Part shown: positions 2,262 through 25,675 of the stretch, piece after piece
Layout of the letters: each line of letters opens with the position of its first letter
Numbering within the stretch: the stretch's first letter is position 1
NCBI GenBank assembly: GCA_003427395.1
Contig: BFEA01000009.1
Coordinates: forward strand, 4,529,726 to 4,593,725
Length of the DNA stretch: 64,000 bases
Reading direction: 5' to 3'
Source of the DNA: Chara braunii
Lineage: Eukaryota; Plantae; Charophyceae
Notes under the pieces: generated by a model
Told to the model about the DNA's origin: nothing
The model's database searches: none
Seen by the model: only the letters and a program-made list of their open reading frames with translations
Program-made: the position numbers and the translations under genes

Positions 2262-2990
2262 ACCAACCACCCCGCACCTTCTTCCTCCTCCACCTCCTTC
2301 ACCATCCTCCATAGCCAGCCACCCCGCACCTTCTTCCTCCTCCACCTCCTTCACCCATCCTCCATAGCCAACCACCCCGCACCCTCTTCCTCCTCCATCT
2401 TCTTCACCCATCCTCCATAGCCGACCACCTCACACCTTCTTCCTCCTCCATCTTCTTCACCCATCCTCCATAGCCGACCACCCCACACCTCCTTCCTCCT
2501 CCACCTCCTTCACCCGTCCACCATAGCCACCCACCTCGCACCTTCTTCCTCCTCCACCTCCTTCACCCGTCCACCATAGCCACCCACCTCGCACCTTCTT
2601 CCTCCTCCATCTCCTTCACCCATCCGCCACAGCTAACCACCTCGCACCTCCTCCCTCCTCCATCTTCTTCACCCACTCTCCATGACCAACCACTCCGCAC
2701 CTTTTTTCTCCTCCATCTCCCACACCCATCCGCCATGGCTAACCACCTCATATCTCCTCCCTCCTCCATTTTCTTCACCCATCCTCCATGACCAACCACT
2801 CCGCACTTTCTTCCTCCTCGATCTCCCTCCCCATCCGCCATAGCTAACCGCCTCACACCTCCTCCCTCCTCTATCCTCTTCACCCATCCTCCATGACCAA
2901 CCACCCCGCACCTTCTTCCTCCCCCATCTCCTTCGTCCGTCCTCCATAGCCAACCATCCCATACCTTCTCCCTCCTCCACCTTCTTCCGC
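2262..2990. repeat. Pyrimidine-rich minisatellite, ~53-bp unit, ~13-14 copies
   Basis: Unit like CCTTCTTCCTCCTCCACCTCCTTCACCCATCCTCCATAGCCAACCACCCCGCA repeated with divergence. Confidence 0.93.
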
Positions 2991-5808
2991 CACTCAAGGG
3001 GTCGTAGGCAAAGGGGCATCAAAGAGCGCAAGGAACTTTAGGTAGGACGGTAGGACAAGCAAAGGAGTAAGGTTGATTAGGGATAGGAAGTCGTTTTCTC
3101 TTTCTCTCTCTTTCCCACTCTCTCTCCCTCTCTTTCTCTCTTCCTCTTTCCCCCTCCTTCTATCTATCTATCTAGCTATCTACCTCCCTCTCTCTTTCCT
3201 CTTTCCCGACCCTCGTTCCGCTTTCTCTTTCTCTTTCCTCCTTCTCCTCATCCGCCGCCATCTCCCCCCCTCTTCCCATCATTGTCTCTATCTCGGCCCC
3301 CTAAAGCCTTGACCTTCACCTTTCCCTCCCCCTCCTCTTTCTTCTTGGCACATGCCTAACCCTTCCCCAACTCACTTGTCACATTGCCAGGGAACGAACG
3401 GTGAAGGAATCTGTCCTCACTTGGTGGAGGAAGAGGGCAAGGGAGGGGTTGTCGGTCCCTTGCGCCACCAAGAAGGAGAAAGGGAAACCCTTGAGGATTT
3501 GGGAAGACAAAGTCCCAGAGAAAGTGGGAGAGTGAGAGTTTGGAACAAGGTTAGTTGACTCAACCATTTCCCCCGACTACATGACTAAGGAAAGGGTTGG
3601 GCTTGACTGTGGAAACGAAGGGAAAATCGAAAGAACCATGGAAGAGAAAGGACCTTAGGCTTGCGGGAAGGGCAATGTGTTGAACCCATTGGGGGATTGT
3701 ATCAGTCTTTGCTTGTGTGGGATTGTGTAGGTGAGTAGCTTGGGATGACTTGAGCGGGACTAGGTCTGGGATACGCAGGTGAAAGAGGGAAAGAGGAACG
3801 AACGGAAGGGCCTTAGGCCGTAGTGTAAACTCTACCGCGGGCGGACCTTGGTGTATGATGCTTCGAACAAAGGGTCAAGAGAGGGGTGTGACCTTGCATG
3901 ATGAAAGTGTGGGGTGATTCTTCGCATGCAACATTAAAGCCCGGAGAGACTAAGGGCAAGCAACGGAGACTATGGATGGGATGCATGTGTCAAGCAAAAA
4001 AAAAAAAAATGTAGGGGCTAAGGGAAAAACAGCGCGGCAGGGACTGATGTATTTAGGGAAATGGTACGTAGCCTAAGGATGACGCTTAGCCTACGCACAG
4101 AAAGAAGAAGATCTCTCAAAGAATCCCTGGACTGCATGAGTATGGGAAGGAGCAATTGCCTGCAATCATAATCAAGAATCGGAGAACTTGCGCTTGCCGA
4201 AAGGACCAACGAGACTACCACCTGGCGTGAGAGCTAAGCTACATCCCCAATGTCAAAGCTCTCTCACTCGATAGCCCACCCCCATCCATCTCAAAGCACT
4301 AGGTGGGGGTGACCCTGGGACGAACGGCCCGCGCCCTGAGCATGAGAGTGGGCGGGCCCACAAGAGGTTAACGGGGCATCTGGTTTTCAGGCGTGAAATT
4401 TGGGGTTATTTAGAGTTTTAGAATTTGTGCTATTAAGATTTCTGAAATTTTTGAAATTGGTCGAGTTTTTTTTGGGCCAAATTTCATGGAAATGCACCTT
4501 TGGCTTGCTGTTTTATATGTTTTTAATTGCTTTTTTTAGGGTTTTTTTTTGTGATAGGGTCGTAAGAAGTGCACTCTATAGATTGGTGTGAAGTGTTGTT
4601 AAAATGACTGTCTGTTTTTTTTATAAATGGGCCTGAAAAATGGGTGCTCGATTAACGTGCTCTCCACGGGCCGAGCCAAATGGGACCCGTATTGAGGTCG
4701 ACCAAGGCTCGAAAGTCTCCCGGGGTTTTACCCTACACCGGATGCCGTATGGGCCTTCGCGGGGTACTACTTATTGATTTCTGCAGTGCACCGAGCGTAC
4801 TTAGGGCGGTGCTCTGCTGCAGGTAGGTCCAACTGGTGCTTGTCCTAGCAAAAAGGGGGTTGTGCCACTGGATTTTCCTTTGGTCCGCGCAGGCTCGGCG
4901 CCCTGTTGTACAACAGGGCACTACCGGCCTGTGGTCGCGGTAGCCGCCGGGCTCGCCTAGGGACGCGAAGGTAGATAGATTTGTGTTGTCTTTTCTACTG
5001 CGCGCCAGGTGCCCTTCTCCTAGGTTATGGGTCAAATGCACGCAGTGCAGCTATCTCGGTCGATAAGAGAGAGGGTTAGGGAATGAAAAGAGAAAAGAAA
5101 ATAAAAGTGAAAGGGAAAACTACGCGTCATATCTGTTTGCCGCCCACGCCCTAGTTCGAGATGACCTAACAACCTATGTCAGCGGCGCCATTATAATTCC
5201 CTTATTTGTTTTTCTTATTTTATTACAATTGATATCGTCGTTAATATTAATATTATTGTTATTATTGATTTCCTTATTTAATTTTCTCTCCTGTCATTTC
5301 GCGGGAAGCTAACGGTTCGATTTTGAACCCAATTGTGGTCTAAGTGGCCTAGACTGGCCCGACTCTTCACTTGTCTTCCTGCGCCTGATCTGTCTGGCTG
5401 AACGCCGCGTGGTAGAGCCACAAAAGAAAAGGCAACCCACGGTCGCTTCGGTAGGAGGCTTATCACCCCCCGCGGAAGGTCATAAGCCCCCTCCTTGCTA
5501 TTGGACGCGGGTACCCGTTAAATATAAGGCCAACAACAAGTCTTGAAGGGAAGAAAACGTCAGTCGGTATCCTGTGATGGGACCACTGCGTCGAAGCCTG
5601 CGGTCACTTCGCATCTGAGGCGAGATGGTTAGTGGTTGGTAGAAGGGCAGGTGCTACGACTGTTGGCATCTTGCCTCGCACCCTCTTTTCTCTAATCGTT
5701 TTATGTTATTTTATTAATTTATGAACTTCTAATTATTAGAAGACAAGGTTCAAAAGTTTTATTTGAGTCCCTCGTTTTGAGCACAGGGATCGTTGAAGGT
5801 AGCGACCC

Positions 5809-5815
5809 TATATAA
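5809..5815 (+). promoter_or_regulatory. Candidate LTR TATA box (5' LTR)
   Basis: TATATAAGAGAG, conserved at 41710-41716 in the 3' LTR. Confidence 0.55.
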
Positions 5816-6764
5816 GAGAGGGAGATTAGTATCTGGTTACTCTGGCATAAGCCGTCTCGACACGCAGTTGCTGGCGAACTGAGAGAGGGTTATGTGGCAG
5901 TGTGAGTGTAGGACAACTCGCGTGGGCTTGCAAAGTGTTCGACCGCGGTTGTCTTGGACTTCAGCGGCTTCTCGGACTTTCGCGGTTGGGTACCGGTGTG
6001 TAGACCGAGTGGAGGAGGAACGATCATGGTTCGAAGCAGTGGGCTGTACGACTACAGGCCGAAGTACCTCCATTACATCTGGAGGTGGGAGCAGGTGTCA
6101 GGGGAAGGACCTACTGTGACGACTATCATGAAAAGTTGACGTTGAAGGGGGGAAAGAAGAGGAAATGAGGGCGGACCAGAGACTACAATTGGCAATCACA
6201 GAGGCCAAGGACCGAGCGGAGAGAAGATGCAGGCGGGACAGGATCACAAACGAAATCAAGGTGACAGTATCGTACCTGGAAGCGGAGACTTCTACGGACA
6301 CCGTGGAGAGGGAACAACAGCAATTGGATCGCGACACTTGGCAGAGAGCGGCGCCAGCGACCTGACGCTGCGACCCAATCCTGGCATGGACTGGATCAAT
6401 GGCGGAGGGATCACCCACCAGCCGAACCTGTGGAAAGGCCAACTCGAGACAGCGTACGGACCGGAGTCGCTAAAACTATTGGGTCGATGGGACTCAGAGA
6501 CTGTAGGGGGGGAGTTACAGTTAAGAAAATTTTGGCTACGACATGGTACACGCGAGAATCTGCGAGGGAACTATGAACGGGATATGGCAGTACACGCCCA
6601 GATTGAAAGGATTTTTTGTTGTTAACGTCACCGTCTGTCTGAGAGGTCAATGTCTCGAGAAAAGAAGTCAGTAGGATCACGGAAAGAAAGAGAGAGAGAA
6701 GGGGCAGTGAGCCAGAGGGCGCGGGCGGTTGTGAGAGAAGGAGAGAGACACAAGTTGGGACGAT

Positions 6765-6767
<3 letters not shown>

Positions 6768-6842
<75 letters not shown>
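6768..6842. repeat. (GA)n microsatellite, expanded relative to the 3' LTR copy (~42695-42710)
   Basis: Direct reading. Confidence 0.97.
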
Positions 6843-9701
6843 GGTGTGCGCGTTAAAGTTCGTCGAGAGAGTGTGAGCAAAAGTCGGACGATAGAGAGGG
6901 AATGGCGACGCCTCAGTGACAGGTAAAACGTCACAAGTTAACCACTTCGCCAGTACCTTAACTTCACGCTGGCTGTGTGTCGGGTAGAAGCCAGGACAGT
7001 ATCTTGTCACAGGGCTCGAAGCTAAGCTGGTTAATGGGTAGAGAAGGGAGTAACCTCGAACAAAGGTGAAAAGTGAGGGAGAAGTCAAACATCTGGCGGG
7101 GTCTCTGTACCAGGATTTATTGTTGATGTCAACAAGTGGTCTTCTCTCGGGGTTCCTGGTGCTGCTTGCTACTCCACCCATGGTGCAGAGATGGTCGGGA
7201 GCGAACACAGGATCTGAGAACAGCAGCAATTGAAAACCTGAGTAGGAAGGTTAAGAGCCGACGAAGAGTATGGTAAAAGTGGTGCATGATTAAGATAGGT
7301 TCTGGTTGATGTCACGATTGCCCTCAGGGCTTGGCATGGCATACCACTCGCTTCAAGAGGACGAGATCTATTGGTTTAGGGGTCGTGGGAGAGAGACGAC
7401 GGAAAAAGGAAATTGGACGCTTCCAGGGAAACGACGCTACCCCTACTCTGAATGCTCGCCATCTCTCCGGCTTCTGTTTTTCTTGGCCTCACAAGGTCGT
7501 GGAAAGCCTTCTCTATGAGAGTCTGTGATTGCATCAGGCGTAGCCCAAAAAGGGTCGATTTTGCGATGTTCTGCCTAATGAGTGTGTGAAGGGAAGTGCA
7601 TTGGGTGAAATCCTTGAAGGGGAGTTGTCAGATAGAGATTAGACGGAGGGAGAGAGGGAGATGTGTGCTTGCGATAAGCGAGGAAAAGATCATGACATTC
7701 GAAGAGGCACGACGAACATTACTTATCTAGTGCACTCGTCAGGCACTGGCGACCGTTCCATGGCTTGCCCTTGCTATAATCCAAACCCGTTTATGTGTGG
7801 GCCTATTGTTATTACCATAGTTCCACTAGAACGAGTGAGCTAGAAAGACTTTGTGTGCGTGCCTTGCCCAATTGGTACGTGGCTAGAGTGTGACATAGTG
7901 CAAAGCGTTGCAAACCTAGGAATGGCATGCCAAGAGAATCCACTGAGGGAGTGAGTGAGTGAATGTTTGGCGTGTGCAGAAGAGAGGAGAGAGGCTAGTG
8001 TAAGAATTCAGTGAAAACTATGTAAAAGCGATTCGATTGACGATATTACCCTCGCATGAGACCATTACTCGCGGGAGGTCCCGTGTGTGCGAGTCTTCCT
8101 GTTGATGTCATCACTTAGTAGAGAGCGGTGTCAAGCGCATCGGTCCGGCACCGCACGAGGCAGCGCGGGACCCTCCCGGCCGCGTCACGCAGGAGTTGGT
8201 TTAAATCCTTCGTCGCAATACACATGGAGCTTCCGCAAGCCGCTCTGGTCGAGTGCGCCAACCATACCTCCCGCGAGCCCCTACGACAGGATAGGGCCTA
8301 CACGAGGCACAACTTACCTCCACCTTATGGGAGCTGTCACCTCCCTTCGGTGGGCGTATCCCCAGCGAGCTACCAGTCCACAGTACAAAAGCTAATCAGT
8401 TGCAATCGCAGAGGTGGACCAGCCGAGGGCGTTTCTTGTTTGCTGTAGCATATGGGGTACGCGCGGTAATACACCTCCATTGGACCCGCACGCGAACCGA
8501 CTTTCTTGGGGGGCTGAAGTCCCAAGCGCGACCCGTCGTCGGTCGACTAGGACGTATCCCACTCGCCACGCGCACACCACAAGACACAAAAATAAATAAC
8601 ACACACACATACAAAAAAACAATGCGACAACACTCCTAGTCCCTTCAGCGTCTATCCCATAACTTTTGCTGCGGAAAAGCAAGTAAGCGGCACGCGCGAG
8701 GCTCATTATAAAAATCGCGCGGCCGTAGAGCCTTATCATATCGACTGGCAATGCAAACATACGCAAGCGGTCACAAGCATGGAGTACTATGTAGTACTCA
8801 TAATCATGGGGTCCTGGATAATAATCGAGGGTCACCTCCGACACTCAAGTGTCGGCTGACACGCGCCTCGAGGGGTTAATCTTTCGGCGCTAGACAATCG
8901 CCATGCGTGGTTGAAGACCACACACCCTCTTCTGCACCCTGTGCAGAGTGGGTGGTATACAGGTCCGTACCTGTGGTGGCAGTCATTTCTTACTGCCTTG
9001 GAGATGATCCCCACTCCAGGCGTGGACAAAAGTCAAGGGGTTTGACTTTGACGGTTGCCACGGACTATAACATCCAACCATGATAACTCAAAAAAACAAA
9101 AATAGGCCGAAGGTCCCCCTATCCCAGAAAATCATAACCTTGGGTACCCTTTTCGGTTGGTACCAGCGGCCTATAATAATCCCAAACATTCGTGCCTACT
9201 TACGAGTCCCTTAATCCCATAACTTTTAGACACTAGGACGGCGAAACGTCGCGCGTAGGAATTTGATATAAAGCCGCGCAGTCGCAGGTCAGTCCTATAC
9301 CAACCAACGATGTTAGTCATACGCGGTAATTGCAGTTCCGGCCCCCGCGACATTGAATGGCTAAAGGAATATATCGTGAGGGGCTACCCTTCACGATATT
9401 GAACGACTGAAAGACATGTCGTTCAGCCCTCGCGACACTTCTGCCCTTAGGGTTGGGTGTCTCGATGGGCAGGGTAGGTAGACTCTGCACGAGGGAAAGT
9501 TCTTTCGCTGCAGAGTCTGGGGTTCGGGGTGTCCTCGACAAGGACCTCGAATCCCGCCCGAAGACCAACGTCCGACTAAGAACTCTCAAGAAGCAAACAA
9601 ACAAGAGGAGGGACCTTCCTTATTTTCTCAATCTCAACCCTAATTACACCTTTACTACCTTTAGTAAGCGGCCCCTCAGGCCACGCGAACGTCCAACCTA
9701 G

Positions 9702-9703
<2 letters not shown>

Positions 9704-9772
<69 letters not shown>
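9704..9772. repeat. (CA)n(TA)n microsatellite
   Basis: Direct reading. Confidence 0.97.
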
Positions 9773-11046
9773 AGGGGAATAGGTATGTGACGATCACTTC
9801 TCATAATCACAGTGGGGCTCCGCACAACCATATGTATATATGTGATCGCAGGCAATCAAATCCAGAATCTGAGCCACAACACATACCTGCAATCACATCA
9901 AAGAGTCAAACAACAGTTCACGCACTACACGAAGTCAACCTCAACCAATCTCTACACTCATACCCCTCGCTTTAGCCACGCAAGCCCCAATCTCCTGTTC
10001 AACCAACCATAATTAAATACTCAGTACCTTTGTTAAATGGTCATTCAATAAAATTCCGGGTGAAACCTTAATGAAACAACAAAATCACCAGGGCTAAAAC
10101 CTTTTAGGTTGAGTATGGAGAGTGAGTTGGAATTGAGTCGTAAACCGACGGATCGACAACCGACCTGTTATCAGTGATAACAAAAGATAATCCTCGTAGA
10201 ATCAAGCCGAATACGACTGAAGTCCTGAACCAAACGATCAAGAGGACCTGTAACACAAGACAGGTCAATCCCAAGCTAAATCTACGAGTCCTTGGAGAAC
10301 AATCACGATCTCACTCCAAAACCTACATGACTAACGAAGCTTAAATTTACCCTTAAGCAATGCCCAAACCAAAGGTAGACCTTGGCAGAGTCTCCCCTAT
10401 ACAGGGTGGATCGTCAAAATCGTCACCTGTCAAAATATAACCTAGCTCTTTTAAACTAAGGAAATTTCGGCAACGCTTCCCGTAGGAGAAGTGTCTTTTC
10501 AGGATTTATATCAACCCGAGTATGAAAACAGAAATAGTCTTTGACTTTCCAAAGTTCAATTTTGTCTAACTCCCTGAATTAGCATAAATTTGGGCAGCAC
10601 TCCCTGTAGAAAATGAGACTTTCCAGATTTTTACTAAGTCATATATGAACTTAAGACAAGCTGAACTTTGAAAAGTCAAAATTTGTCTAACTCCCTTGGA
10701 TTTGCAGAAATTTCGGCAACGCTTCCCGTAGAGAAAGTAGCTTACCAAAATTTATACAAGCCAAGTATAACAAAAGATCCCAGAAAATGCGAGAATTGAT
10801 TTAAGTAAAGACTTAACTCAGAAAATGCATGAATTGAAGCTAACTCCTATTACTCTAACACGTGGCGAGCGACTAAAGCAACTACCTATCAAACTGAAAC
10901 TTACACTAGGTAACCATCTCACTCAGCCACATGCAAGGCCAAACCACAAAGGTAAGTACTCTCGTCATCCCAAGTCAATTTAGCAAGCAATAGTTCATGA
11001 TTTTTCCATGATTTAACCCTTTATACCCAGCTTACATACGACGTAC

Positions 11047-11952
11047 AGTCAGGCCATCCAATCTTATGGAACATGTCTGACTCAACCATTGAGTATACAC
11101 GAACAGGTTGCACAACTACTTCTCTCTTCCTTTAGGCATATGACTAAGCCATTCATCTTAGAAACAATGCTTAGCCGCCCTGAACTGTTTAATATCCAAG
11201 ATATATATACCTCTCTGAACATAGTGTTCAAAAGCTGGGCGTAGGACTGAGCCATTCATCTTAGAAACAAAGCTCAATCTGCCCAAAGTTACCTTCAATT
11301 ATATTCTTAATTATACTCTTCTTCAAATTTATGATAAGCTATAGTCAAACCACCCAATCTTATGGGACTCTGTCTGACCGGCCTGTTCTTTAATAAAATA
11401 GTAATAAAATATAACCAAATTATAACATTTTGGGTTCCAGCATGTGCGAGGCATTGGGCCAGACCATCCAATCTTATGGAACATGTCTGGTCCTCTGCCG
11501 AGTTCATTTCTCTCTGACCCTCATGTGTGCGGCACGAGTCCAAAGTCATCCAATCTTATGGAACATGCTTTGTCCTCAGCGAAAATTACTCCCTCAGAAT
11601 AAAACAAACAAAAAAGTTGAGTCATTCATCTTAGAAACAAAGCTGAACCTCTTTTTCTCAGCACAAAAAAACAGAGTACTCTGAATTAGACCCAGAGACT
11701 GTTCAAAAACTACCCAGAAATAAACAGCGACCAGACCATCCTATCTTATGGAACAATGTCTGGTCCTCAAGTTTGCACAATCGAAACCCCACAAAACAAG
11801 TAGCCAGGTCATTCATCTTAGAAACAAAGTCTGGCGAAATTAAGTAAACACAACGGTCAAGCCATTCATCTTAGAAACAAAGCTTGGCCTTTTCAGAAAA
11901 CAGAATAAACACAGCAGTCAGGCCATCCAAACTTATGGAACCATGCCTGACT
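11047..11952. other. Array of 11 conserved-structure hairpins with (A)TCTTA loop, variable stems and unique spacers
   Basis: Cores CATCCAATCTTATGGAACAT (type A) or CATTCATCTTAGAAACAAA (type B), each enclosed by its own 6-8 bp inverted repeat; units start at 11047, 11142, 11245, 11344, 11457, 11541, 11616, 11729, 11803, 11855, 11916. Confidence 0.85.
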
Positions 11953-14900
11953 CTATAAGACCCTCCCAATACCAAGCAAAACCACCTTTCTCCCAACCTT
12001 CCCCCTGACGCAATCCCTTATTATAATCTGCTTTCAGACAATCAAGAGAACTGAAACTGCCATTGCACATGCATTCCTTTACTTAGTCTGGTTTGTGTCC
12101 TGCCAGTCAAACTAAAAATCAAAGTAGGGGTGCATACAATATACTCAGCCAAACATAAAAAGATGTACAGATAGGGGTTATACATGGGTTTATAGAGGGA
12201 AGTGGAAAATTACCTTACAGTTCCCTGCCTCCAGAACTCCTCCTGAGTTCCGGCAGAGCTCCCGCAATCGATCGGTTAACCTCCCACGTAGGCCTTGCTG
12301 CGATCCTACGGATTGCAATCCCGCCTGCCGCCTTCCTCTCAGAACCAATAGACCAGACTTAGAGTAAGAAGGGCAGATAGAGATAATTTTGAGACTCTCT
12401 GATACAAGAGGGGTACACTCAGACTCGCGTGAGAGGGCCTTGTTACCTTGATGCGCCTGAGGGCCCCGCAACGGTGACCGACCGACAGCTTGGTCAACTC
12501 ACAGCCAAACGCAGGAGAAACGACAGTCTGACAAACCCCCAAGTCACAGCACTACCCCAATCGCTCCTCTGAGCTCCAACACCTCTCCTTCGCCCATTCG
12601 CTGCTGTATAACAGACCGTAATGATTGACGAAAGTTGATGGTAGTGTTCAACAGAGTGCAGTTACCAAACAGGCAGCAGTCTGTTCACAGTACGTAACGG
12701 CAAGTTGTGCCCAGTCAACAGACACATCGCCAGTTCATGCGGCCAGCGACAGCCAGCAGCAATGCGCAATACTGTCAATCGGTACAACAACAGTTCGTTA
12801 TATTATGCAGCAGCAGCTTGCCATATTCCGCAGCAGCAACTCATTACTGCATGTAGCAGCTATGGTCCCTCTTTCCATGCAGCAAGTCACCGCGCTCTCG
12901 GCGGTCAGCTTTGCAGGAACAGCGCAGTATGCACAAACGTCACCCTGGGTAGGCTCGACTATCTCCACAACTCTGCTTCTCACTCCCACAGTCAGCAGCT
13001 GAGCGGCCTCTTCAATCAGTCGGCAATCCCGCATCCCCCTCCTCCAAGCCGCGGCCACAGCCCTTTCTGCAGTCCAGTAATTTTTTTCATACCCCACTCT
13101 CGTTCCCCGGGCTGAAGCCGTGATTCCACGACTCCAAGCAGCCATTGTACTCACGGCCTCACCAACAGCGGTAACGACGATCAGGCTCGTGACAACAGCC
13201 CTCTCCAACAGATCGCCTTCATCCCATGCGCGGCAATGCACGATAGAGAGCGCAAAGGGCAGCGAGTGATAGTGGCACTGTAACAACTCAACACATCAGT
13301 GAATCCCCCCCCCCTTTTTATAGTAGTACTAACACTGCGCCAGCTGTTCACCAAATCCACATCCTGTAATTGGTCTGCTATTCCCCCCCCTTCCTGCTAA
13401 GCCCGGCCACATATGCAGGGCGATAGGAAGGGCTACTCTCCTCGATAGGATGAGTAAGAGTCGCAGGAGCCTGCCGCCTTAACGTGGGAGGGCACACCGC
13501 TGTCCGACTTTATGCGCCGAGAGACCGGGGTTGCTCTGAGAAAACTCGAATGGTTCTCCCACCGGATGTCGACCAAGTTCATTAGCAGCTCGAGCGACTC
13601 TCCTCCTGCTACTCCCACCTCTACGGTGGGGAGCGACGTCCCGCAGGTAAGTCTTCCACCTCCCGCGGTTGCCCCTTATGCCACTTCCCCCTACGAAATG
13701 AGCGACCCTGGAATGGGCCTTTCGCCAAGAGTCGGGGAGCTATGTCCCTGAACCTGGCCCGAACGGCTAAACAGATACACGTCCGAGGCTATTATCCTCC
13801 CCACGCAGCTCCTCCTACCATTCAAGCCCCGGACCTGATGCTACCATCCGATTCACGATGCCTTCAGACCCCAAACTCGAGCCTTCGTTCCCCCGTCTTC
13901 ACACCGAAACGGGTGAGTTCGACGATTTGACTCGGCTTCTTCACCGCTCCCCGCCATAGCTCTGCGCATCCTATTCCTCACTAACCTCCTAATCCACTAA
14001 CCCACGGCGAAAACTGACTTCGCCAATAACTCCGCCTTAGCCAAAGTATTAGGAATGAGCCTTTAGTTGCCCGTACCTATCGAGAAACAAGCCCGAGGTC
14101 ATCCTTTTCTCCCCCTGCCATGCCCAACTTCCGCCATCCCTTGCGCAACATTTCCCTGCTCTAGCTTCCTAAATACTGGCTTTCTACAAATTCCGTTCTT
14201 GAATATGGTGTCGCCTATTCCCAAACCCCACCCTATCTTCTTTTCAAGCCTGAATCCATGAAGGATCGAACTAGCTATTCGGCCCTCCCTCCGCCACTTT
14301 TACTCCCCACCATCTCCCTCGTTAAATGCACCTGTCCCCGCTCCTTGGCCAGGTCCGTTTTCCCCGTTCGCTACCCCGCTGCCCTGCTTTGGCGCCCGTT
14401 TTACTCCAGACATGCGCTCGCCTTATCTCCGCAATCGCCTACCCCCGTCCTCCTTCGCACCCAGTCACGAGTGCACCTGGCGAGGTTCAGCGTGCAGGTT
14501 CATTCTACTCCCCTGCTCCCCGTCTAACTCCTGCCTTTCCTACTTCGTCCGTCCTCCCTGTTTCCCACGCCGCTGGCCAGGCTCCTATCCGGATTCACCC
14601 GGTGCTTGTCCTCACCACCTCCTTGACTACGCCTGCCACCCCTCTACCATCATCTTCCCCGAATGTCCCTGGCGCCACTCTGCGCCCAGGTTCATCCCTC
14701 CACTGCTGTTCGCCCCGTCACCACCTTCGCCCAGCCTGTTCTCTCTCTCGTCACCCCGTGCTCTCCGCAGTGGCACCAAGAGTCACATGGGACCTACGTT
14801 CCTCGTTCCTCCATATCCCGTCTTCCCCACCTTACATACACACCGGGTCCGATTCACGCCCAGGTCCACCCCTGCTCGTAGCCGCCCTCGGCTAACGCAC

Positions 14901-15423
14901 CATTTCGACAGTACCTGGCTCGATAGTGACGAGCTCCGGCCGTTACGAACGAGTCAAAATAGACTCCGCGCGACCCTCCCCTGATTTATACACATCATCC
15001 TTGCGCCGGGGCCCTGCCAATCGTTCCGAGTTGTAACAGGTGTCCTGAAGAACGCCGACCAGGGCAATGCCCCGCGGCTCTCCGAAACCTGAAACAAAAA
15101 GAAAATAATAATAATAAAGTTAAACCCCACCCAAAAAGATAAAAATGAGAAAACTAGGGGACGGGGATGCGGGACTTACCAATACTTTCCTCGGCCCTGC
15201 AGGGCGGGCCCGCGATCGGACTACCCCGACAAAACTAAAGGGGATAGTCTCATGGGACTTTCAACCCCTCAGCCCCTCCGACACTCCTTCACTCCTACGC
15301 CAACGCCCATTGGCCTCAATCCTTGTACCTTCATAACAACATTCCAACATCATAACCAATAGGGCTAAGCCCAAACCTAAGGTTGGTTTGCGTGGAATCC
15401 AATAAAGGTGGTGTGGTGCCGCG

Positions 15424-15733
15424 CCCGGACCTGGGAAGACAGCCCGGCCTCATCCCTACCTATAACTAAGCACGCGGTCGCTACGCCCCCGCGCTGGCCT
15501 GCCCAATCAATCGGAAAGATCACACGCGCGCCTTAAAACTGCACGCCAACATGCCTCCCACTTAGCCAGGGCAAATCCCGGACCTGGGAAGACAGCCCGG
15601 CCTCATCCCTACCTATAACTAAGCACGCGGCCGCTAGGCCCCCGCGCCGGCCTGCCCAATCAATCGGAAAGATCACACACGCGCCTTAAAATTGCACGCC
15701 CACATACCTCCTACTTAGCCAGGGCAAATCCCA
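15424..15733. repeat. 153-bp tandem duplication near the right end of the 7.7-kb element
   Basis: CCCGGACCTGGGAAGACAGCCCGGCCTCATCCCTACC at 15424 and 15577. Confidence 0.92.
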
Positions 15734-16821
15734 GACGCAGCCGTGCCCCGCACGACTTATTTCGACCAAACCCATTTTCCCTGTTATCTGCAAAAACCAG
15801 GGCGGATACCCTTGTAAGGGTATTCGCGCCGACAACGGAATTCACAGTGAAGCTGTGTACTTCTTGCGGTTGGCGCTACCCCTGTTTTTGCTCGGTCTGA
15901 GCTGGCCATCTTAGCTAGTAGTTCCATCATCGTTCACAAACTTCAGTTACTATCGTCCTCTTTACTAGCATCGGGTTCTGGCCATTGGTGTTGAGATCGG
16001 ATATGGTTGCCATGTGATCGTGGGGGACACTCGAAGCTAGTTTGAGAGATCAATGAGAATAGACTTTGGAGACTCGACCTTTTGTCGGGTACACACGAGA
16101 GAACAAGTCAACCGATTCTCAGCTAGTTGCGCACTTGATATTATCTCCGCCGTGGTTATGACAACTACAGTTACTGGATTCAGTTAAAATTCGACGTTGA
16201 ATAAGGAGGAAGATGAAGTTGCAAATAATGATGGTTTTTGAATCAATCAATGATTGCTATTGCTTTAATTTTGTGAATGACTCATTCATGACAGTGTGAA
16301 CAAGAGAAGAGCTTCTCATTTTTCTTTTGCTGTTTAAGTTTGCTATGGTAAAACGTGGGTACTTGGAGTACGACCAACCTATGAAACACCCGTGGACGCG
16401 TCCGATCTCGGTGGCGGACGCAGATGAGGCCGCGTCCGTGGCCGACCTCGTCCGCGCCGCGGACCCGATTTTACCAGAAGTTTCCTGAATTAAATAATAT
16501 GTTAAAAAAAAACAAACATATGGGGTTGTAGGAAATTTTAAGCCCTACAACCCCATATTTTTCTTTTTGGAATCCTACTTTGTTTAGGATTTTAAAAAAA
16601 TCAAAAACTAAATTCGATTTAAAGAAAAACAAAAATATATTTATAAAGAAAAGCTGGATTTTTTATTTTTTTATTTTTTATCATGAGATATATGGTCCCT
16701 GAGTTCACCTGTATTTTTTTAGTAATGAATTTATGTTTTTTGTATAGGTATGAGGTGTTTAAAAAAAATGCAGATGCAAAATTTAAAAATAAATAAAGAA
16801 GAAACTTCAAAAAAGGGGTTT

Positions 16822-16857
16822 GATTGATTGATTGATTGATTGTGAGTGAGTGAGTGA

Positions 16858-16892
<35 letters not shown>

Positions 16893-16897
16893 TGTGT

Positions 16898-16933
<36 letters not shown>
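16822..16933. repeat. Compound (TGAT)n(TGAG)n(TG)n microsatellite abutting a gap
   Basis: Direct reading. Confidence 0.95.
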
Positions 16934-17443
16934 NNNNNNNNNNNNNNNNNNNNNNNNNNNNNNNNNNNNNNNNNNNNNNNNNNNNNNNNNNNNNNNNNNN
17001 NNNNNNNNNNNNNNNNNNNNNNNNNNNNNNNNNNNNNNNNNNNNNNNNNNNNNNNNNNNNNNNNNNNNNNNNNNNNNNNNNNNNNNNNNNNNNNNNNNNN
17101 NNNNNNNNNNNNNNNNNNNNNNNNNNNNNNNNNNNNNNNNNNNNNNNNNNNNNNNNNNNNNNNNNNNNNNNNNNNNNNNNNNNNNNNNNNNNNNNNNNNN
17201 NNNNNNNNNNNNNNNNNNNNNNNNNNNNNNNNNNNNNNNNNNNNNNNNNNNNNNNNNNNNNNNNNNNNNNNNNNNNNNNNNNNNNNNNNNNNNNNNNNNN
17301 NNNNNNNNNNNNNNNNNNNNNNNNNNNNNNNNNNNNNNNNNNNNNNNNNNNNNNNNNNNNNNNNNNNNNNNNNNNNNNNNNNNNNNNNNNNNNNNNNNNN
17401 NNNNNNNNNNNNNNNNNNNNNNNNNNNNNNNNNNNNNNNNNNN
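16934..17443. other. Assembly gap (N run)
   Basis: N run. Confidence 1.
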
Positions 17444-17478
17444 AATACTCCATCTTCGTTGAGGATGAAGTTCTATAG

Positions 17479-17516
17479 CTGTCTCTTATACACATCTAGA
17501 TGTGTATAAGAGACAG
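17479..17516. other. Nextera mate-pair junction adapter (Tn5 mosaic-end pair), artefact
   Basis: CTGTCTCTTATACACATCT+AGATGTGTATAAGAGACAG, exact. Confidence 0.99.
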
Positions 17517-18874
17517 GTCCGACCTAGAAAAAAAAAAAAAAAAAAAAAAAAAAAAACATGTTTTTTTTCCTTCATTTCTTCTCAACCCCCCCCACCAAAA
17601 GATGTTATTTTTCCATTTTTTGTGTGGGGGGGTGGGACCGGGGATGTGCCGCTGAATGGCACTTCCCGAATCCCGAAATCCCCTCCCCTCTGGCCACCAC
17701 ATGGTGCCAAAGCCGCGCGTCCGCGCAGACTCATCCGCTGGCAGCGCGGCCTGGCCGCGGTTGTCCGCCGCCTAGGGGGATTCATAGTGACCAACCGCCT
17801 CGAGAGAGGTCACTGTTGTTTCACTTTCAGTCTGCCACCCTTCGAAGGTAGGTCTCTTATGACTAACCTTTACATATCCCAGGATAGTTGGAGTTATTAT
17901 CAGGATCAGAAACACTCGTGTATACTAAATTACAACGCAGTATAAGTATGCTATAATCTGGGGCAGAACTGTGTCAATTGTCAATGGTGGGTGAAAGTGT
18001 TCAAATACAGCCATGCATTACTGACCCTGATTTATGAGACCGGAGACTGTTGGATCGGTTTTCCGGATAATTGAGTGTACATAGGCTGAGTTTTATCCGC
18101 GAAAACCTACAGAATGATTGTTGTCAAATAATAAGTAAAGGAGTTTCGCTTTACTCATTGTCGTGTCCAACTTTCTTGGGGCTCCCACAGTAACACACCT
18201 TCCCATGTGCCTTAACAGAGTAAAGTTGTCTTACACGCTTTGAACGGTCTCCATAGCGTAAACAGGTCGCAAAGGGGCTACGGTAGATTGAGTTTCTGAT
18301 TATGTAGTTCTCTCGATTTTGTCTGTATGGTCCGAGTGATAATTTTGTCTTAAGTTGTAGGCACTAGTTTGACCAGGAAAGGCAAGAGTCATAAGCAGTC
18401 CGAAAATTCAATTGATTACTTGAAAGGCTTTCAATCTCAATGATGGGTAAACGTGGAGTCAAGTAAACTCAAGACCGCACGAGTTCTTGAGTATTCATGT
18501 AATTGTGTGAGCTTATCTGACACTCTCGTGATCACACAAGCCTTTGATGGCACAAGTCCGCAAATCTAGCGACTGTGCATACAGATGACCTTGCAGTCTT
18601 ATAGGCTTATGCGACTGTAAGGGCCTACGTGTGAAGGGACTGTATGAGTGTGTGCAATTATATCAATCTGAAAACAAAAGACCTTGGGTGTCGTTTCGAC
18701 TATGGAAGCTTTCAAGTCTCCACAAAATCACGAGTACATGATCAGCAAACCGGGTTATCAGTCAAATCCCAATCTCGAGTGATCGAAATGTTGAGGTAGA
18801 GTAATGAGCCGCGAAGGGAGAAAACGACAGCTGAGGAAAATCCTCTACTTGATTGTTAAGTTTTTACTAGACGG

Positions 18875-21800
18875 TGTCGAGCGCATCGGCCCCGCGAGGG
18901 CCCTCCCGACCGCGTCACGCAGGAGAAACTTAAGCTTTCCAACTTTTTAGAGACAGCTTGGGGACAACACGGTAACCCGCGTCGACCCGTCGCCGCTCCG
19001 GCCGAGTGCGCCAGCTGTACATCCCACGGTCCCCTACGACAGGATAGGTTTCCGCGGGGCACAACTTACCTTCCCTAAGGGGCTGTCACCACCCTTAGGG
19101 GCGTATCCCNNNNNNNNNNNNNNNNNNNNNNNNNNNNNNNNNNNNNNNNNNNNNNNNNNNNNNNNNNNNNNNNNNNNNNNNNNNNNNNNNNNNNNNNNNN
19201 NNNNNNNNNNNNNNNNNNNNNNNNNNNNNNNNNNNNNNNNNNNNNNNNNNNNNNNNNNNNNNNNNNNNNNNNNNNNNNNNNNNNNNNNNNNNNNNNNNNN
19301 NNNNNNNNNNNNNNNNNNNNNNNNNNNNNNNNNNNNNNNNNNNNNNNNNNNNNNNNNNNNNNNNNNNNNNNNNNNNNNNCGTTCCAAGCGTAAGGAAGAC
19401 TTCTAGCGATCCTAGTCCCTTCTTTCGAAGACAATCAAGAGTCACTCAGACAAACCCTTTCAAAAAAATGACTCAGGTCAACGCAAGTTGACTTATCTTC
19501 CAAAATCAACTTATATGTAATACAATCATGCATACGACAAAGGTTGACTTGGCTTCAAACAACACCTATCAATAAAAACTCAAAACATGACCAATACACA
19601 AGGCGACACTCAAGTGGCGTCTGACTAAAATACCTTCACTCTGCCTGCCAGACGACTGGACCGTCACGACTTTTTCGACTGGATGGGATGCGTTGCCAAG
19701 TTTTTTTCATTCTGCCCCATACTAACTGCTAGCACGGAATATGAGCGCCCCAACTCTCAAGCAAAGTTAGAGTGTCATTGTTTTAATGACGACTTCACGC
19801 TTTTCCTCTAACTTAGGTGTGAATGCCATCTGCAAATAACTCGGCTACCATCTATACAAATCAGCGACCAGCTCGAACAATCGGACGCGCGATGCCCCAT
19901 TAAGGTCAGCGATCCACCTTCAAACTTTGTTGGTCGCTCTGTCCTCCTGGACAATAATTACTCTCTTTGTTCCAAAGTACCAGCTTGCGACATGAAAACA
20001 TTTACAGCAATACTCTATTCACATCTTCCCGTCAACTAGTCTGATCACCTCATGTTTGCACTTCTTATGGTGCAACCCTATCCGCGAAGATGATGCCCAG
20101 TCGCACTCCGTTCATAGCTAGTGAAAACACGAACTGGGCTTCTTATGGCGTCAGTCCTCCATTCGTCTGTGGCTCCTAAGACGGCCACAAAGGGTAAACT
20201 ATGACGGTCCTCCTTAGCGCAAGCCGACAATGACTTAACGTATTCCGTGAATAGCGCATGTCCATCCCCTAGGAGGTGGTCTGGGATACCCCTCGTCCTC
20301 GCCCGGGTGAACCTCGGATCTCAGAAGTCGGGCCGGCTCCGCCACAACAGCATGGTATCCCCCCGCAGTGCGGTCCACTCCAAGTTGATCACAGGGCCGG
20401 CCCCTAAGGCAACGAACCCCCACCTCAGATGCCTCCTAGGGAAAGGAAACGCCTCTACCACAGCAGACGACCAACCCCTTGCCGCCTGACGTCAAGGTGA
20501 ACCTAGACGAAGAAGAAGATCACAGAGAAGGAAAGCATTCAGACAGACGGGCATAGACAAAGGTGGTCATTCGGGAAAGAATGGGTAACATCTGAAACGA
20601 GTCCATGTCCGATTAAGTTTCTTTTTTTTTGTGAGTGTGATCATTCCTTTTATCGTCGTCAACTGATTTTCTCTCTTGTGACAAACATGCAAACAAGAGA
20701 TAGAAGACAAACACCCTGTCCCCATTTTCATTGACATGACCAATCTCGTTTTCAAGCTTTCTTCTACCTACCTGCACATCAGACCAAACAACAAGTTCAA
20801 AGGAAAACAATGCGATTCACACTCACGTCAGACTTTCATTCACACACGCAAACACACATGTTCTCTACCTATCCAGTGAACATTCAAAGAATAGGGCCAA
20901 GCAAGTGTGGGTTCACACAGGTGTGAAGGGGTCTGAGTCAAACAGCTGACCGTGAGTGAAGTTGAAGAGACGACCCACTCAAGAAGACCGTGTAAAATCA
21001 CACTCCAGAGAAGACAATCGCCACAACAAGTCGCCCACAAAACGATCTACACTACTTTCTAGTACGGTCGCTTGCCGCGACACCCTCTCAACACACAACC
21101 ACATCCCAGTAATCTGACGGCGTCTCAGCGTCCCGCCACCAACCGCACCACCACGACGTTGCCGACAATACCAGAATATGCTGCCACAAAATGCCCCTCA
21201 CAGTCTAAGCGCTTCCACGTCACCACCTAGAACGTGCTGCTGCCGCCGCAAAAGTTCAGCAGCACGTCCGCGTCGCTGCCAGAAAAAACACCGTCGACGC
21301 CGGAAGATTTCGACAGCACCTCCGCGTCACCACCAAAATCTCAGTGATGCCGCTGCAAAAAATTGGCAGCGCTTCCGCGTTACTACCTAGAACGCACTGC
21401 CGCTGCCGCAAAAAAAAAAAAAAAAAAAAAAAACCGGCAGCGCTTCCGCATCACTGTCAAAAAGCATCGCCGTTGCCGTGCCAAACAGACAGAGTTTCCC
21501 CTGCACCGCTTGCCGAAGACTCGCTGCCGCCGTGCAAGACGGGCAGAGTTTTCCCTGCGCCACTTGCTAAAGACCCTGCCGCTGCCGTGCAAAACGGGCA
21601 GAGTTTCCCCTGTGCCCCACCAGCTGCAGGGGCAGCTATGGCTGCCCTCACTCTCATGCTCCCTGCACACCTCCAGCGCTTCCCTCTCTCTTCACCTTGC
21701 TGAGATGGCGGCTATGGTTGTGTTCCACAACTATGGCCACCTCCAGCAGTTCTCTTCCTTCCTCGCCTGCAGACCTCCTCTTCAACCAGCAGCAGTTCCC

Positions 21801-24209
21801 CCTCCTCTCACTAGCAGCTCCTCCCAGCAGCAGCAAGCCAGCATTCACTCAAGTGAATTGCTAGCAACACCAGCCACAAATGATTGCTGGCTGGCTGCTT
21901 GCTGGCTGCTTTTATAGTTGTGGGAGGTAGTGGTAGCAGCCTAAGCTCTCAGCCAAAATTTCGAGCTCAGGCTGGGCCCTTGATCTCTTGGTGAGATCAA
22001 TGGCACATACCAGCCCCACACAGCAGAAATGGCCAGGTCCATTCATAAAGAAAAGGACCTGGCCCTCTTCCTGCTGTAAAACCAGCAAGGGGGGGCTGTA
22101 TCTAGCCACAACCCTTGTTGGTCTGCTACTGCTGAGGTTCAATCTCAGCAGTGCACCTTCTCCTAGACCTGACCAAGTTCAGAGTCAGGCTCTTGCAGCA
22201 AACCACTTGGGAACATGGCCCGGACAGCGGCCAGGTTCAAGCAAAAATTAAGAAAGGTGCCCTCTTTCTCTCTTCAACCCTGGCCATATTCGGTGCAAGC
22301 CCCCTTGCTAGTTTGCTGCACCAAGTGCAGCAAACCGTTTGGGAACCTGGCCCCGACAGTGGCCAGGTACGTTATTTCTTTTATTTTTGTTGCTGCTCTA
22401 GCAGCCTCGTTTTGCCTCAGTCCCCCCCCTTCTTCTTTTCTCTTCNGGAACCTGGCCCCGACAGTGGCCAGGTACGTTATTTCTTTTATTTTTGTTGCTG
22501 CTCTAGCAGCCTCGTTTTGCCTCAGTCCCCCCCCCTTCTTCTTTTCTCTTCTTCTTTTCTTTTCTCCCCTGCCCTCCCCTGAAAATGGGGATGGCAGTTG
22601 TCAGATTGGGAGAGGTAGGGAAAGAACTCGTGAAAATTCACGAGTTCAAATCCCGACAGCCTCAAAGCGGGGTGCAAAAAGTACCCCGACTTTGAAGAAT
22701 TTTAGAAAAATATTCGCTAAATAAAAAAATCTAAAAACATTCATGTACATGGCGTACGTGCCTGACTACCTACGGAAAAAAAATCAAGGTCAACAAAATT
22801 ATTTTGCGCCACCAAAACAATAGTGGCGCAAACTGAAAAATACAGCTTCTCAGAAAAACTCAGATCCTATTTTTTCGTTTTCTTTTTCTTTTCTTTTTCT
22901 TCTTTTGTTTTCTTTTTCTTCTTTTCTTTTCTTTTCTCTTCTTACCCCCCTAACAACGGGGAGGCAGCTGGCAGGTCGGGAGGAGCAGGTCCTCCTCTCC
23001 CCATCCTCCCATTTCTCTTTCTCTCTCACTCTTCACTCAATTCCAACCCCCTCTTGCTTTCCGTGTGTGAACTGTGGGCCGCGAGATTTCAAGATCTCGC
23101 GGCCACAATCATCCGTCCAAAACGAAGTGGGTGTCTTTGTGCTCCCACACAGTCTCCAAGACGAAGTGGGAGCCTTTGTGCTCCTACACAGTTTGCAAAG
23201 ACTGTTTTCCCCTTTTTTTTCTTTTTTTTTTTGTCGTTGGCTATGCCAACGGCCACGTCGGTGGTCACATCGTGTGCCCCCCCCAAACACGATCTATCGA
23301 ATTACAGACCCAAGTTCGACCCCATCCGAGACCAAAAAAGGGAAAATTTTGGCCTTTTCTCGATTTATGTGTGTCATCCTTGCGCGCGGGGGCCACTTTG
23401 ATCTGGGGGCGGCAGATCTCAGTCGCGCGATCTTGAGGATCGCGCGGCCGAGATTGGCCGCGCCCAACTGCCTTGGGCTGCTCCAAAAGAAGCTAGCCCG
23501 GTAAGATGCTTGCAGCCAAGCTTGATCCCGGTACCAGATAGGTAAGAGTCCTCTGCGATAACCTACTGGGCTAGCTCCTATCATGATAATAACAAGAGCA
23601 ACTCGCCTATGTGAAGAGCTCGCCCAGTCAGGTTTCCCCCATACCGTGACCTTGCAGGCTTTGCCTGCCCGCTTCTTCCCTATGAATGGTTGCTCATCCA
23701 CCACTCCGGGCCCGCCCATCGGGTAGGCCTCGGTATAGGCCTGCTGGCCTCACCCTGGCTCGAGGATAACCCGGCGGCCCAAAAAAAAGGAAAAAAACCT
23801 TGCTATTCCTTTCGCACCGTAGCCCTATACCCTGCGCATCCCTCCTTTTTAGCCTACTTAGGCCCTGAATCGCAGCCGCGCGACATCTTTTAGGTAGAAT
23901 AAGTCTAGTCTCAGACTTTCTACGACCACGCACCCCTGCGGCCATGTCCAGACCCGCGGACGACAGGCCATACCGCCGACTCCCGCTGTCTCGAACGGAC
24001 GCCGTTGTCGTCACATGTCAACGACGTCCCATGTCAACGACGTCATACATCAATGACGTCAGGCTTTAGGTTTCTCAGTTATAGGGTTGGTCTGAACAAC
24101 TTTTGACAACGTCACTCTCAACCAGTTCCTCAATCCCATAAAAAAATCGAACAGCGACTGACCTTGACAAACTCGGGTAGAAACCCTTACAGGGGTTTCT
24201 GTCCCGACA
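18875..24209 (-). mobile_element. ~5.3-kb non-coding TGTC...GACA element related to 8129-15834, perfect 4-bp TSD ACGG
   Basis: CTAG-ACGG|TGTCGAGCGC ... GTCCCGACA|ACGG-GGATTAG; empty site CTAG-ACGG-GGACTAG at 45578-45581; shares left-end blocks with the 8129 element; minus-strand TATAAA at ~21911-21916. Confidence 0.88.
19110..19379. other. Assembly gap (N run)
   Basis: N run. Confidence 1.
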
Positions 24210-25675
24210 ACGGGGATTAGTACTAACTGTAATTAATGCCTCAGGTGTTGGCTGGGAACATACGAAATTAACCGAAATAAGAGACAATACTTCCTTGGCA
24301 TACGACTGTAGACGAAGTCTATAGTTGAAAGGTGATTTCTCGCATACTTTAGTGGACTATTGCCCAGGGACAAGATTATATAATTAACCTTTATACAATC
24401 AAAACTGAGGTGGAATCTACCGCTGCGTGCACTAACATCAGACCTAATCTAAGCAGATTGCACAAGTTTTGAGAAGATGTAGCAGCAGTCAGTGTACTAA
24501 TTAATTGTTGTGCACTCTCCTAAGTTATGGGTTATTGCTGCATGCATTGATAAATGGTTTCCTCTACATGCTGCATCCTCATTCCTTCAGTTCAAACTGA
24601 CTCTTGAAGCGGATTTGTGCAGTAGCCACAATGTGAACGGTCCAATGAGGCTTGGTAAATAAGTTGTAATTGCCCCTTAAAAAGAAAATGGTATGGTAAT
24701 GACTGGACCTCATAATTTAGAGGAAAGACAGAGCCAAGATCAACGGAGTCGGCTCCAAACACATCACATGCTCGGTATGGGCCATAACCATGCCAAGTGG
24801 TGTAGACACACAAGTACAACTTTGCCACCTTCTATCGGATAGTCGGCATGAACCGTGCCTAACCAGACTTCTCCAAGTTAGTGGGGTTTTCCTTTTGCCG
24901 AACATGCCTCAATGTCGAGTCAACTACAGATAGCCTGAGTCTTGGGTGTGGCCCTTCAGTCTTGAGCGTAGATCTCGCGAAAGTTGTAAGTGGTCTTTTC
25001 TACCTATTACTTGGGTTCCGGAGTGTAAACGAAACCATGAAGGAGAATGGGGTCCTAGCGATAAAATGCGAGATCATTTTGGAAAAGCACAAAAATTGGG
25101 AAGATGAGGCTATTCTGTGTATGGAGCGTCAAAAGATGATGATGAGGGAGAATGCAACCCAACGGATTAAGAAAGAAAAATTAATTGAGTACGCATTCTA
25201 CTTTCGTGATCAGAACGGCAAGTTGCACATCACCGACTCATGGTTAGAGTCGGTAGAGCAAGCTAGGGCAAGGCTCAAGTGAGCATAAAGATGCCTAGGC
25301 TTCTTCCTTGGCTTTTTACCATTATGCAATTAGCAGCCCTCTCAACATTTCGACATTCAGTCGTTCGAGTTATCAGAAGGCTCCAGTCAAAATTTTAGCC
25401 AGTATCCAGTCAACCTTCTATCAAATGTGCCATTTGTATTACTCAAGAGTTTCTGTTAGAAGAAATCTACATTTAATCATCTCCAATTGACACAGAGATC
25501 AGACATAAGTTGGATTGTATTTTTATCATAAAACACGGAGAACAATAACAACCAAGACTGTCTCTGTCAGAAGACACAAGATCGGTTTCAACATCCACTT
25601 CAGTACATAAATGCAGTTCAGTCGTTTCCCGTCGATGGATCGGTTTTGACCAGACTCAACACGATCTCTTTCAAG

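What the first reader, a model, noticed from the sequence alone, without database searches (positions are those of the whole stretch)
4731..24213. Three independent ...ACA-ended insertions all at 4-bp NCGG targets
Seen, using the 3' LTR as the empty allele: ...CTACA|CCGG (4737; left end not in the window), GCGG|TGTC...GACA|ACGG (8129-15834) and ACGG|TGTC...GACA|ACGG (18875-24209). The inferred end of the chromovirus LTR also reads ...ATCAACA|TCGG (52617). Established: land-plant LTR elements usually make 5-bp TSDs with little sequence preference, whereas 4-bp CCGG/CCGT-specific TSDs (CCGT = ACGG on the other strand) with TGT...ACA ends are described for Ginger1 DNA transposons with Gypsy-like integrases. 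These elements lack Ginger1-length TIRs (only ~5-10 imperfect bp). Inference: a Gypsy-integrase lineage that targets CCG/CGG sites, possibly reading cytosine methylation and so steering insertions into old TEs.
Basis: partly seen in the sequence, partly recalled or inferred. Interest (0 to 1): 0.75.

Follow-up and report, generated by a model that had tools for sequence, protein, structure and literature searches.

The report
CG-targeting giant Gypsy LTRs in Chara
Two long insertions (and the visible end of a third) sit at four-base targets with CG in the middle; they are likely leftover end-repeats of retrotransposons in what is likely a stonewort alga, using a target rule already reported for the moss Phygy elements, so this likely extends a known habit to a new lineage.

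Summary
E2 (8129-15834) and E3 (18875-24209) are real insertions in the 5' LTR of a Gypsy element, each duplicating 4 bp with a central CG. E1 shows one end only; the end at 52617 cannot be checked. Other copies of E3's end carry CG at flank positions 2-3 in at least 28 of 58 and 32 of 67 partly laid contigs, against 4-5% by chance; positions 1 and 4 vary, so the rule is NCGN, not NCGG. That rule is published: all 186 moss Phygy elements have 4-bp NCGN duplications (PMC6317226). E2 and E3 lack TIRs and transposase, so they are not Ginger1; they look like solo LTRs related to the host's 7.5-kb LTR (inferred). The host polymerase groups with Chara braunii elements, not with the liverwort clade, so Phygy membership is not shown. 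Against the link: the host's own visible flank is GGGT. Nothing supports methylation reading; CG as a bendable central step explains it more simply. No earlier scan finding on this rule turned up. Side find: a decayed U6 copy at the same offset in E2 and E3.

The parts
1..4737 (-). E1, visible part of an insertion 84 bp into the host 5' LTR; begins TGTAGG on the minus strand; other end outside the window; kind not determined
   Evidence: no similarity to E2, E3 or host ends beyond TGT
4738..4741 (+). E1 right flank CCGG (duplication length unreadable)
4738..26733 (+). Host 5' LTR in four pieces, ending GCGCGACA; 91.1% identical to the 3' LTR over 7357 columns
8125..8128 (+). E2 left target copy GCGG
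8129..15834 (-). E2, 7706 bp, TGTC...GACA, 4-bp terminal complementarity only, non-coding; likely solo LTR
14955..15059 (-). Decayed near-full-length U6 snRNA copy in E2, lacking 11 central model positions (25.1 bits, gathering score 44)
15835..15838 (+). E2 right target copy ACGG (G to A against the empty site)
16379..17787 (.). Unrelated short-TIR element with 8-bp duplication, also inside the host LTR; not part of the CG rule
18871..18874 (+). E3 left target copy ACGG
18875..24209 (-). E3, 5335 bp with N gaps, TGTCG...CGACA, non-coding; likely solo LTR; multi-copy family whose depth ends at 24209
23342..23395 (-). 3' half of a decayed U6 copy in E3, same offset from the element's 5' end as in E2 (25.2 bits)
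24210..24213 (+). E3 right target copy ACGG
26738..26755 (+). Host primer-binding-site-like 18-mer starting TGG, 4 nt after the LTR (tRNA-Asp type by recall, not tested)
32002..37750 (+). Host gag-pol, broken by stops and frameshifts; gag, RT, RNase H, integrase zinc finger; GPY motif, no chromodomain-like stretch seen after it
40543..40562 (+). G-rich polypurine-tract-like stretch, 10 nt before the 3' LTR
40573..48118 (+). Host 3' LTR, 7546 bp, TGTCGG...GTGTGAAA (decayed end), followed by GGGT; serves as empty allele
52610..52621 (+). Proposed end of a second (Tf2-type) element; unverified

Best explanation
E2 and E3 sit between 4-bp target copies with a central CG and are likely solo LTRs left by non-chromoviral Gypsy retrotransposons, related to the host element, whose integrase would cut target DNA with a 4-base stagger centred on CG, as moss Phygy elements do. 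Shown: the two duplications; a multi-copy family ending at E3's GACA with CG at flank positions 2-3; no TIRs or coding capacity. Inferred: full elements (LTR-gag-pol-LTR) inserted and lost their interior by LTR-LTR recombination; the integrase comes from the Chara clade that holds the host; the preference arises from direct target contacts plus the sharp bend that a 4-bp stagger needs, which favours a flexible pyrimidine-purine step in the centre, here narrowed to CG. Methylation would not be required, and nesting would follow from a repeat-rich genome and CG-rich LTRs.
For: Junctions. Family flanks: depth falls from about 7900-8400 to about 50 across 24209-24216; contigs laid through flank position 3 or further number 28 of 49 (X2) and 32 of 52 (X4) in the right-side rows shown, at least 28 of 58 and 32 of 67 of all partly laid contigs; the rest (21, 20) have majority GCGT; chance 3.8-5.4%. 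At the other end, a 36-contig loose-end majority reads GCGG before TGTC, and one nested copy seen in all four runs has GCGC: CG at -3/-2 and at +2/+3 fixes a 4-bp, CG-centred site. LTR nature: on the minus strand E2 and E3 start TGTCGG and a hairpin like the host LTR, share an exact 11-mer with it 50-66 nt from the 3' end (its only three copies in the window; 3 of 613 control tiles reach 11), and E2 has the same length scale; 0 of 81 ORFs hit a transposase or integrase family. Precedent: Phygy 186 elements, 4 bp 100%, NCGN; Selgy 4 bp 96%. Mechanism: 4-bp retroviral sites favour a central YR step, largely independent of chromatin (PMC4422553); Drosophila Gypsy clades have clade-specific 4-bp motifs (PMC3276498).
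Against: The host's own visible flank is GGGT, not NCGN; its LTR end is decayed at 3 of the last 8 bases and its left flank is outside the window, but it is the only element here tied directly to a polymerase. No copy of E2 or E3 joined to a PBS, PPT or pol gene was recovered. Host-to-E2/E3 likeness is limited to short motifs; nhmmer finds no alignable end. The Chara clade is not sister to the liverwort/fern clade, and no named Phygy sequence was in the tree. The laid runs come from one study, may be the window's own source, may count a junction twice, and 22 rows were not shown. The CG preference is much sharper than the general YR bias of retroviruses, so bending alone does not explain it.
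Confidence: 0.7

Rival explanations
1. Same elements, but the integrase or a partner reads methylated (or unmethylated) CpG and so steers insertions by epigenetic state.
For: The invariant bases are exactly the CpG; the host LTR shows C-to-T change at 10-11% in CG and CHG against 5% in CHH, consistent with methylated DNA; all three insertions are nested.
Against: No chromodomain, MBD or SRA family listed for 106 Chara relatives. CHG is as mutated as CG yet is not the target. Sharp 4-bp motifs occur in Drosophila Gypsy clades as TATA/ATAT, where methylation plays no part (recalled). Present methylation would follow insertion anyway. No methylome was available.
Confidence: 0.1
2. E2 and E3 are complete non-autonomous cut-and-paste elements moved by a Ginger1-like integrase-transposase.
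For: Ginger1 makes 4-bp CCGG (75%) or CCGT/ACGG (24%) duplications and has TGT ends (PMC2836005 passages); ACGG is common among E3 flanks; no PBS- or PPT-joined copy was recovered.
Against: Terminal complementarity is 4-5 bp against 40-270 bp TIRs; no transposase; many flanks are GCGT or ACG plus non-G, outside the Ginger1 set; ends are polar and parallel the host LTR. Ginger1 is listed from animals only in the passages seen.
Confidence: 0.07
3. E2 and E3 are LTRs of a different Gypsy lineage than the host (for example Tat-like elements with 4-bp duplications); the host lineage itself has no CG rule.
For: Host flank GGGT; only motif-level likeness; TatI has 4-bp and TatII 49% 4-bp duplications.
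Against: Shared TGTCGG start, hairpin, 11-mer and size; the same paper reports a sequence preference for Phygy only; the host clade and the liverwort clade lie on the same side of a long, fully supported branch.
Confidence: 0.13

Closest known systems
Phygy, non-chromoviral Ty3/gypsy clade of Physcomitrella (Neumann et al. 2019, PMC6317226; passages and supplement table seen)
   Same: 4-bp duplication with NCGN preference; Gypsy domain order; no extra integrase domain; often nested in other elements (PMC6911290 passages).
   Different: Phygy elements are 7.7-10 kb, mostly coding, 81% tRNA-Trp primed. The host here is about 29 kb with 7.5-kb LTRs (the paper gives about 5 kb as its largest), a PBS that looks Asp-type (recalled), and a polymerase in a separate Chara clade. 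E2 and E3 carry a U6 remnant.
Selgy (Selaginella) and fungal Ylt1-like Gypsy elements
   Same: Selgy has 4-bp duplications in 96%. Basidiomycete relatives fall in the same broad group (P0225 Phenoliferia; Atlas rows with Basidiomycota). The name Ylt1 and its 4-bp duplication are recalled, not from a call.
   Different: No sequence preference reported for Selgy; short elements; tRNA-Ala primer.
Ginger1 DNA transposons (Bao et al. 2010, PMC2836005; passages seen)
   Same: 4-bp CG-centred target, TGT ends, Gypsy-type integrase.
   Different: Ginger1 has 40-270 bp TIRs, encodes its transposase, no LTR structure, and is confined to CCGG/CCGT.
Cassandra, Helenus and Ajax: LTRs carrying small-RNA-derived sequence (PMC10886601; passages seen)
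   Same: A small-RNA gene remnant inside an LTR shared by sister families.
   Different: Those are short TRIMs with 5S or tRNA parts; the terms 'U6 snRNA' and 'snRNA' have no hit in that paper. Function here untested.

Membership tests
Phygy | 4-bp target duplication | tested here: met
   E3 exact, E2 one mismatch; both-end flank majorities
Phygy | NCGN target preference | tested here: met
   at least 28 of 58 and 32 of 67 partly laid contigs for the E3 family; not met at the host's one visible flank
Phygy | RT-RH-INT clustering with the REXdb Phygy clade (the defining criterion) | tested here: inconclusive
   No named Phygy sequence obtained (REXdb fasta too large; no Physcomitrium name). Host groups with Chara elements 96/94 and is not sister to the Riccia clade, which is only inferred to be Phygy-like (PMC12885004 reports Phygy and Selgy in a liverwort). 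E2/E3 have no polymerase to place.
Phygy | Short element (7.7-10 kb), coding region filling the interior | tested here: not met
   Host about 29 kb; gag-pol about 5.7 of 13.8 kb interior; E2 and E3 alone are 7.7 and 5.3 kb
Phygy | tRNA-Trp primer site (81%) | tested here: inconclusive
   PBS-like 18-mer found; assignment to Asp is from recall, no tRNA set was compared
Solo LTR of a Gypsy element | TG...CA ends, target duplication, no coding region, no inner LTR pair | tested here: met
Solo LTR of a Gypsy element | Same sequence found as twin LTRs with PBS, PPT and gag-pol elsewhere | not testable with these tools
   no genome held; contig look-ups empty; short contigs only
Ginger1 | TIRs of 40-270 bp | tested here: not met
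   4 bp (E2) and 5 bp (E3)
Ginger1 | Integrase-like transposase without RT | tested here: not met
   0 of 81 ORFs of 70 aa or more in E1-E3 hit such a family; 0 of 120 pol proteins hit E1-E3 by tblastn. A non-autonomous copy would also lack it.
Ginger1 | Duplication restricted to CCGG or CCGT/ACGG | tested here: not met
   E2 GCGG; 21 and 20 contigs with majority GCGT; 10 and 11 with ACG plus non-G
Ginger1 | Integrase groups with Ginger1 transposases | not tested
   no Ginger1 sequence was obtained

The most novel reading that the evidence does not exclude
A charophyte Gypsy lineage with 5-8 kb LTRs has an integrase that recognises CpG directly and senses its methylation without any reader domain; the trait is ancestral to a deep clade spanning Chara, bryophytes, ferns and fungi and is the source of Ginger1's CCGG rule; and sister families keep a captured U6 module at a fixed LTR position as a working part.
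Probability: 0.08. Interest if true: 0.75.

Novelty: new member of a known kind. Interest (0 to 1): 0.3.

Why it matters
It extends the one known sequence-specific target rule of plant LTR retrotransposons from a moss to a likely charophyte lineage that is phylogenetically separate, which suggests that CG-centred targeting is old or has recurred. A high-copy family with a sharp CpG rule is a good system for asking whether an integrase senses cytosine methylation, and it warns that 5-bp assumptions will mis-annotate these very long LTRs. The rule itself is in print, so the gain is in range, not in kind.

Tried and rejected
No whole genome is held, so no genome-wide paired TSD logo. Contig look-ups for P0001 and P0020 found no record. 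A 15-base terminal pattern in metagenome contigs gave chance hits: 0 of 120 loci match the window by blastn. Viral contigs hold no relative of P0267 or P0001. No RNA holder listed; expression not tested. The first lay was too wide to list most terminal flanks and gave none for the host LTR end. 3-, 5- and 6-bp duplications rejected. Troyka (3 bp, CG ends; abstract) and GingerRoot (6 bp, 100-150 bp TIRs; passages) do not fit. A CCCTC stretch in both 24209 loose-end majorities could reflect a polypurine tract, but agreement is 0.43-0.45 like the other rows: not used. Chara proteins, Riccia relatives and cluster look-ups gave no named Physcomitrium or Selaginella sequence. The first tree (97 rows) was a quick search; one search used 50 rows picked by me from it, leaving out near-duplicates and the long-branched second element. 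Literature searches for a Chara report of this rule (listings only) found none; most subscription papers and Repbase are not searched. PMC13728883 and PMC4522978 (passages) added nothing.

Full report
Anatomy. Self-comparison shows one large LTR element. Its 3' LTR runs 40573-48118 (7546 bp) and its 5' LTR is broken into four pieces between 4738 and 26733, 91.1% identical over 7357 columns. A PBS-like 18-mer follows at 26738, a broken gag-pol lies at about 32002-37750 and a G-rich tract precedes the 3' LTR. Four insertions interrupt the 5' LTR: E1 (ends 4737), E2 (8129-15834), a short-TIR element (16379-17787) and E3 (18875-24209). Of the 120 listed relatives of the host RT-RNase H, the first 106 are named Chara braunii proteins, the best at 65% identity, so the window is likely from Chara; earlier notes on this genome say the same (unchecked).

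Observation. E3 duplicates ACGG exactly; E2 has GCGG left, ACGG right and GCGG in the empty site. Lengths 3, 5 and 6 do not match on both sides. E1 shows CCGG on its one visible side, with a one-base ambiguity. The end at 52617 has no twin in the window, and 62 of 1176 ACA words are followed by NCGN, so it carries no weight. Three CG-centred sites in DNA with 4.1% CG have P about 7e-5, with the caveat that the pattern was chosen after seeing it.

Other copies. No genome was held, so I laid short contigs of public DNA runs on E3. On 24162-24250 142 and 146 contigs were laid for X2 and X4; summed depth falls from about 7900-8400 at 24207-24209 to about 50 at 24216, so 24209 is a family terminus. 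Right-side loose ends in the rows shown: X2 21 at 24209, 10 at 24212, 12 at 24213, 6 at 24214; X4 20, 11, 15, 6. Those laid to 24212 or beyond match CG at flank positions 2-3: 28 of 49 and 32 of 52, or at least 28 of 58 and 32 of 67 if all partly laid contigs are counted; 3.8-5.4% is expected. The contigs that stop at 24209 have majority GCGT. At the opposite end a 36-contig majority reads GCGG before TGTC (median loose length 17, so only some reach the flank), and a nested copy seen in all four runs has GCGC. CG at -3/-2 and +2/+3 defines a 4-bp NCGN site; among contigs laid to 24212 or beyond the fourth base is G in 18 of 28 and 21 of 32. Limits: one study, possibly the window's own source, 22 rows not shown, and matching flanks are slightly favoured by the aligner.

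What E2 and E3 are. Terminal complementarity is 4 and 5 bp. None of 81 ORFs of 70 aa or more in E1-E3 hits a transposase, integrase or RT family (one weak unrelated hit), and none of 120 pol proteins hits them. They hold no inner LTR pair. Read on the minus strand both start TGTCGG followed by a hairpin, as the host LTR does, and share with it an exact 11-mer 50-66 nt from the 3' end, the only three copies in the window; 3 of 613 control tiles reach a shared word of 11. E2 and E3 are 80% alike over 124 nt near that end and carry a U6 remnant at the same offset. This fits solo LTRs of sister families of the host. It is an inference: no full-length partner was recovered, and nhmmer finds no alignable end between them and the host. 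E1 shares only TGT and remains unassigned.

Lineage. A 50-row RT-RNase H tree puts the host with eight Chara proteins (96/94), joined by two unnamed proteins (100/99). A clade with Riccia proteins and unnamed close relatives (100/100; Calypogeia and Adiantum relatives) groups instead with a set that includes a basidiomycete protein (100/96). All 40 are set off from ten other Gypsy-type proteins by a branch of 0.64 at 100/100. No named Phygy, Selgy, Ylt1 or Ginger1 sequence was in the tree. The host's own visible flank is GGGT, which does not fit NCGN; its LTR end is decayed and its left flank unseen, but this counts against a simple link between this polymerase and the rule.

Known systems. 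Neumann et al. 2019 (PMC6317226; passages; supplement table) state that Phygy elements prefer NCGN, 4 bp in 100% of 186, and that other lineages show no sequence preference. PMC6911290 (passages) confirms 4-bp dominance in Phygy and GC-rich centres of 4-bp duplications. Ginger1 (PMC2836005 passages) shares the target but needs 40-270 bp TIRs and is confined to CCGG and CCGT/ACGG: not met. The elements work like Phygy; membership is not shown, and size argues against it. Additional files 1 and 3 of the 2019 paper, which I could not see, would allow a direct comparison.

Mechanism. For retroviruses with 4-bp duplications a flexible pyrimidine-purine step is favoured at the centre, largely independent of chromatin, together with base contacts by integrase (PMC4422553 abstract and section 6). 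Drosophila Gypsy clades have inherited 4-bp motifs (PMC3276498 section 12). CG is such a step, so direct readout plus bending is the simplest account (inferred). For methyl reading there is no positive evidence: no reader domain is listed for the 106 Chara relatives, CHG is as deaminated as CG in the host LTR yet is not targeted, and CG density is higher in the LTR than in the interior (41 versus 23 per kb). It is not excluded either.

Novelty. Searches for a report in Chara (listings only) and among earlier scan findings found none. The rule is known; the host range, the very long LTRs and the U6 remnant appear to be additions. Verdict: real feature, new member of a known kind, interest 0.3.

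Noticed in passing
window 14955-15059 and 23342-23395 (minus strand): Decayed U6 snRNA copy at the same offset in E2 and E3 (shared 10-mer at nt 831 and 827 from the 5' end), below Rfam's gathering score. The bin 23358-23631 has several-fold the contig depth of its neighbours, so this region is shared by many more repeats.
   Followed up: partly
window 40573-48118: The host LTR is 7546 bp, above the about 5 kb given as largest in PMC6317226; the PBS-like site lies 4 nt and the G-rich tract 10 nt from the LTR.
   Followed up: partly
window 16379-17787: Short-TIR element, CTATGAA...TTCATAG, with an 8-bp duplication (one mismatch); contains an N gap; superfamily not determined.
   Followed up: partly
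window 17479 and 28942: Back-to-back 19-mer that looks like a mate-pair library junction adapter (recalled) left in the assembly; local duplications nearby may be artefacts.
   Followed up: no
window 39956-40076 (minus strand): Fragment matching bacterial-type LSU rRNA (61 bits) in the host's 3' non-coding interior, perhaps organelle-derived.
   Followed up: no
window 58425-58598: Inverted pair with a weak type III hammerhead match at 58546-58595 (31 bits, gathering 48.5).
   Followed up: no
window 424-1444 and 2262-2987: Tandem arrays of about 79-bp and 53-bp units inside E1.
   Followed up: no
window 56489-57173 and 59020-59466: Nested inverted repeats forming long hairpins; weak miRNA-family scores below threshold.
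   Followed up: no
window 29900-31900: About 5 kb between the host PBS and gag, with coding-like but broken sequence just upstream of gag; earlier notes describe extra 5' ORFs in other elements of this genome.
   Followed up: no
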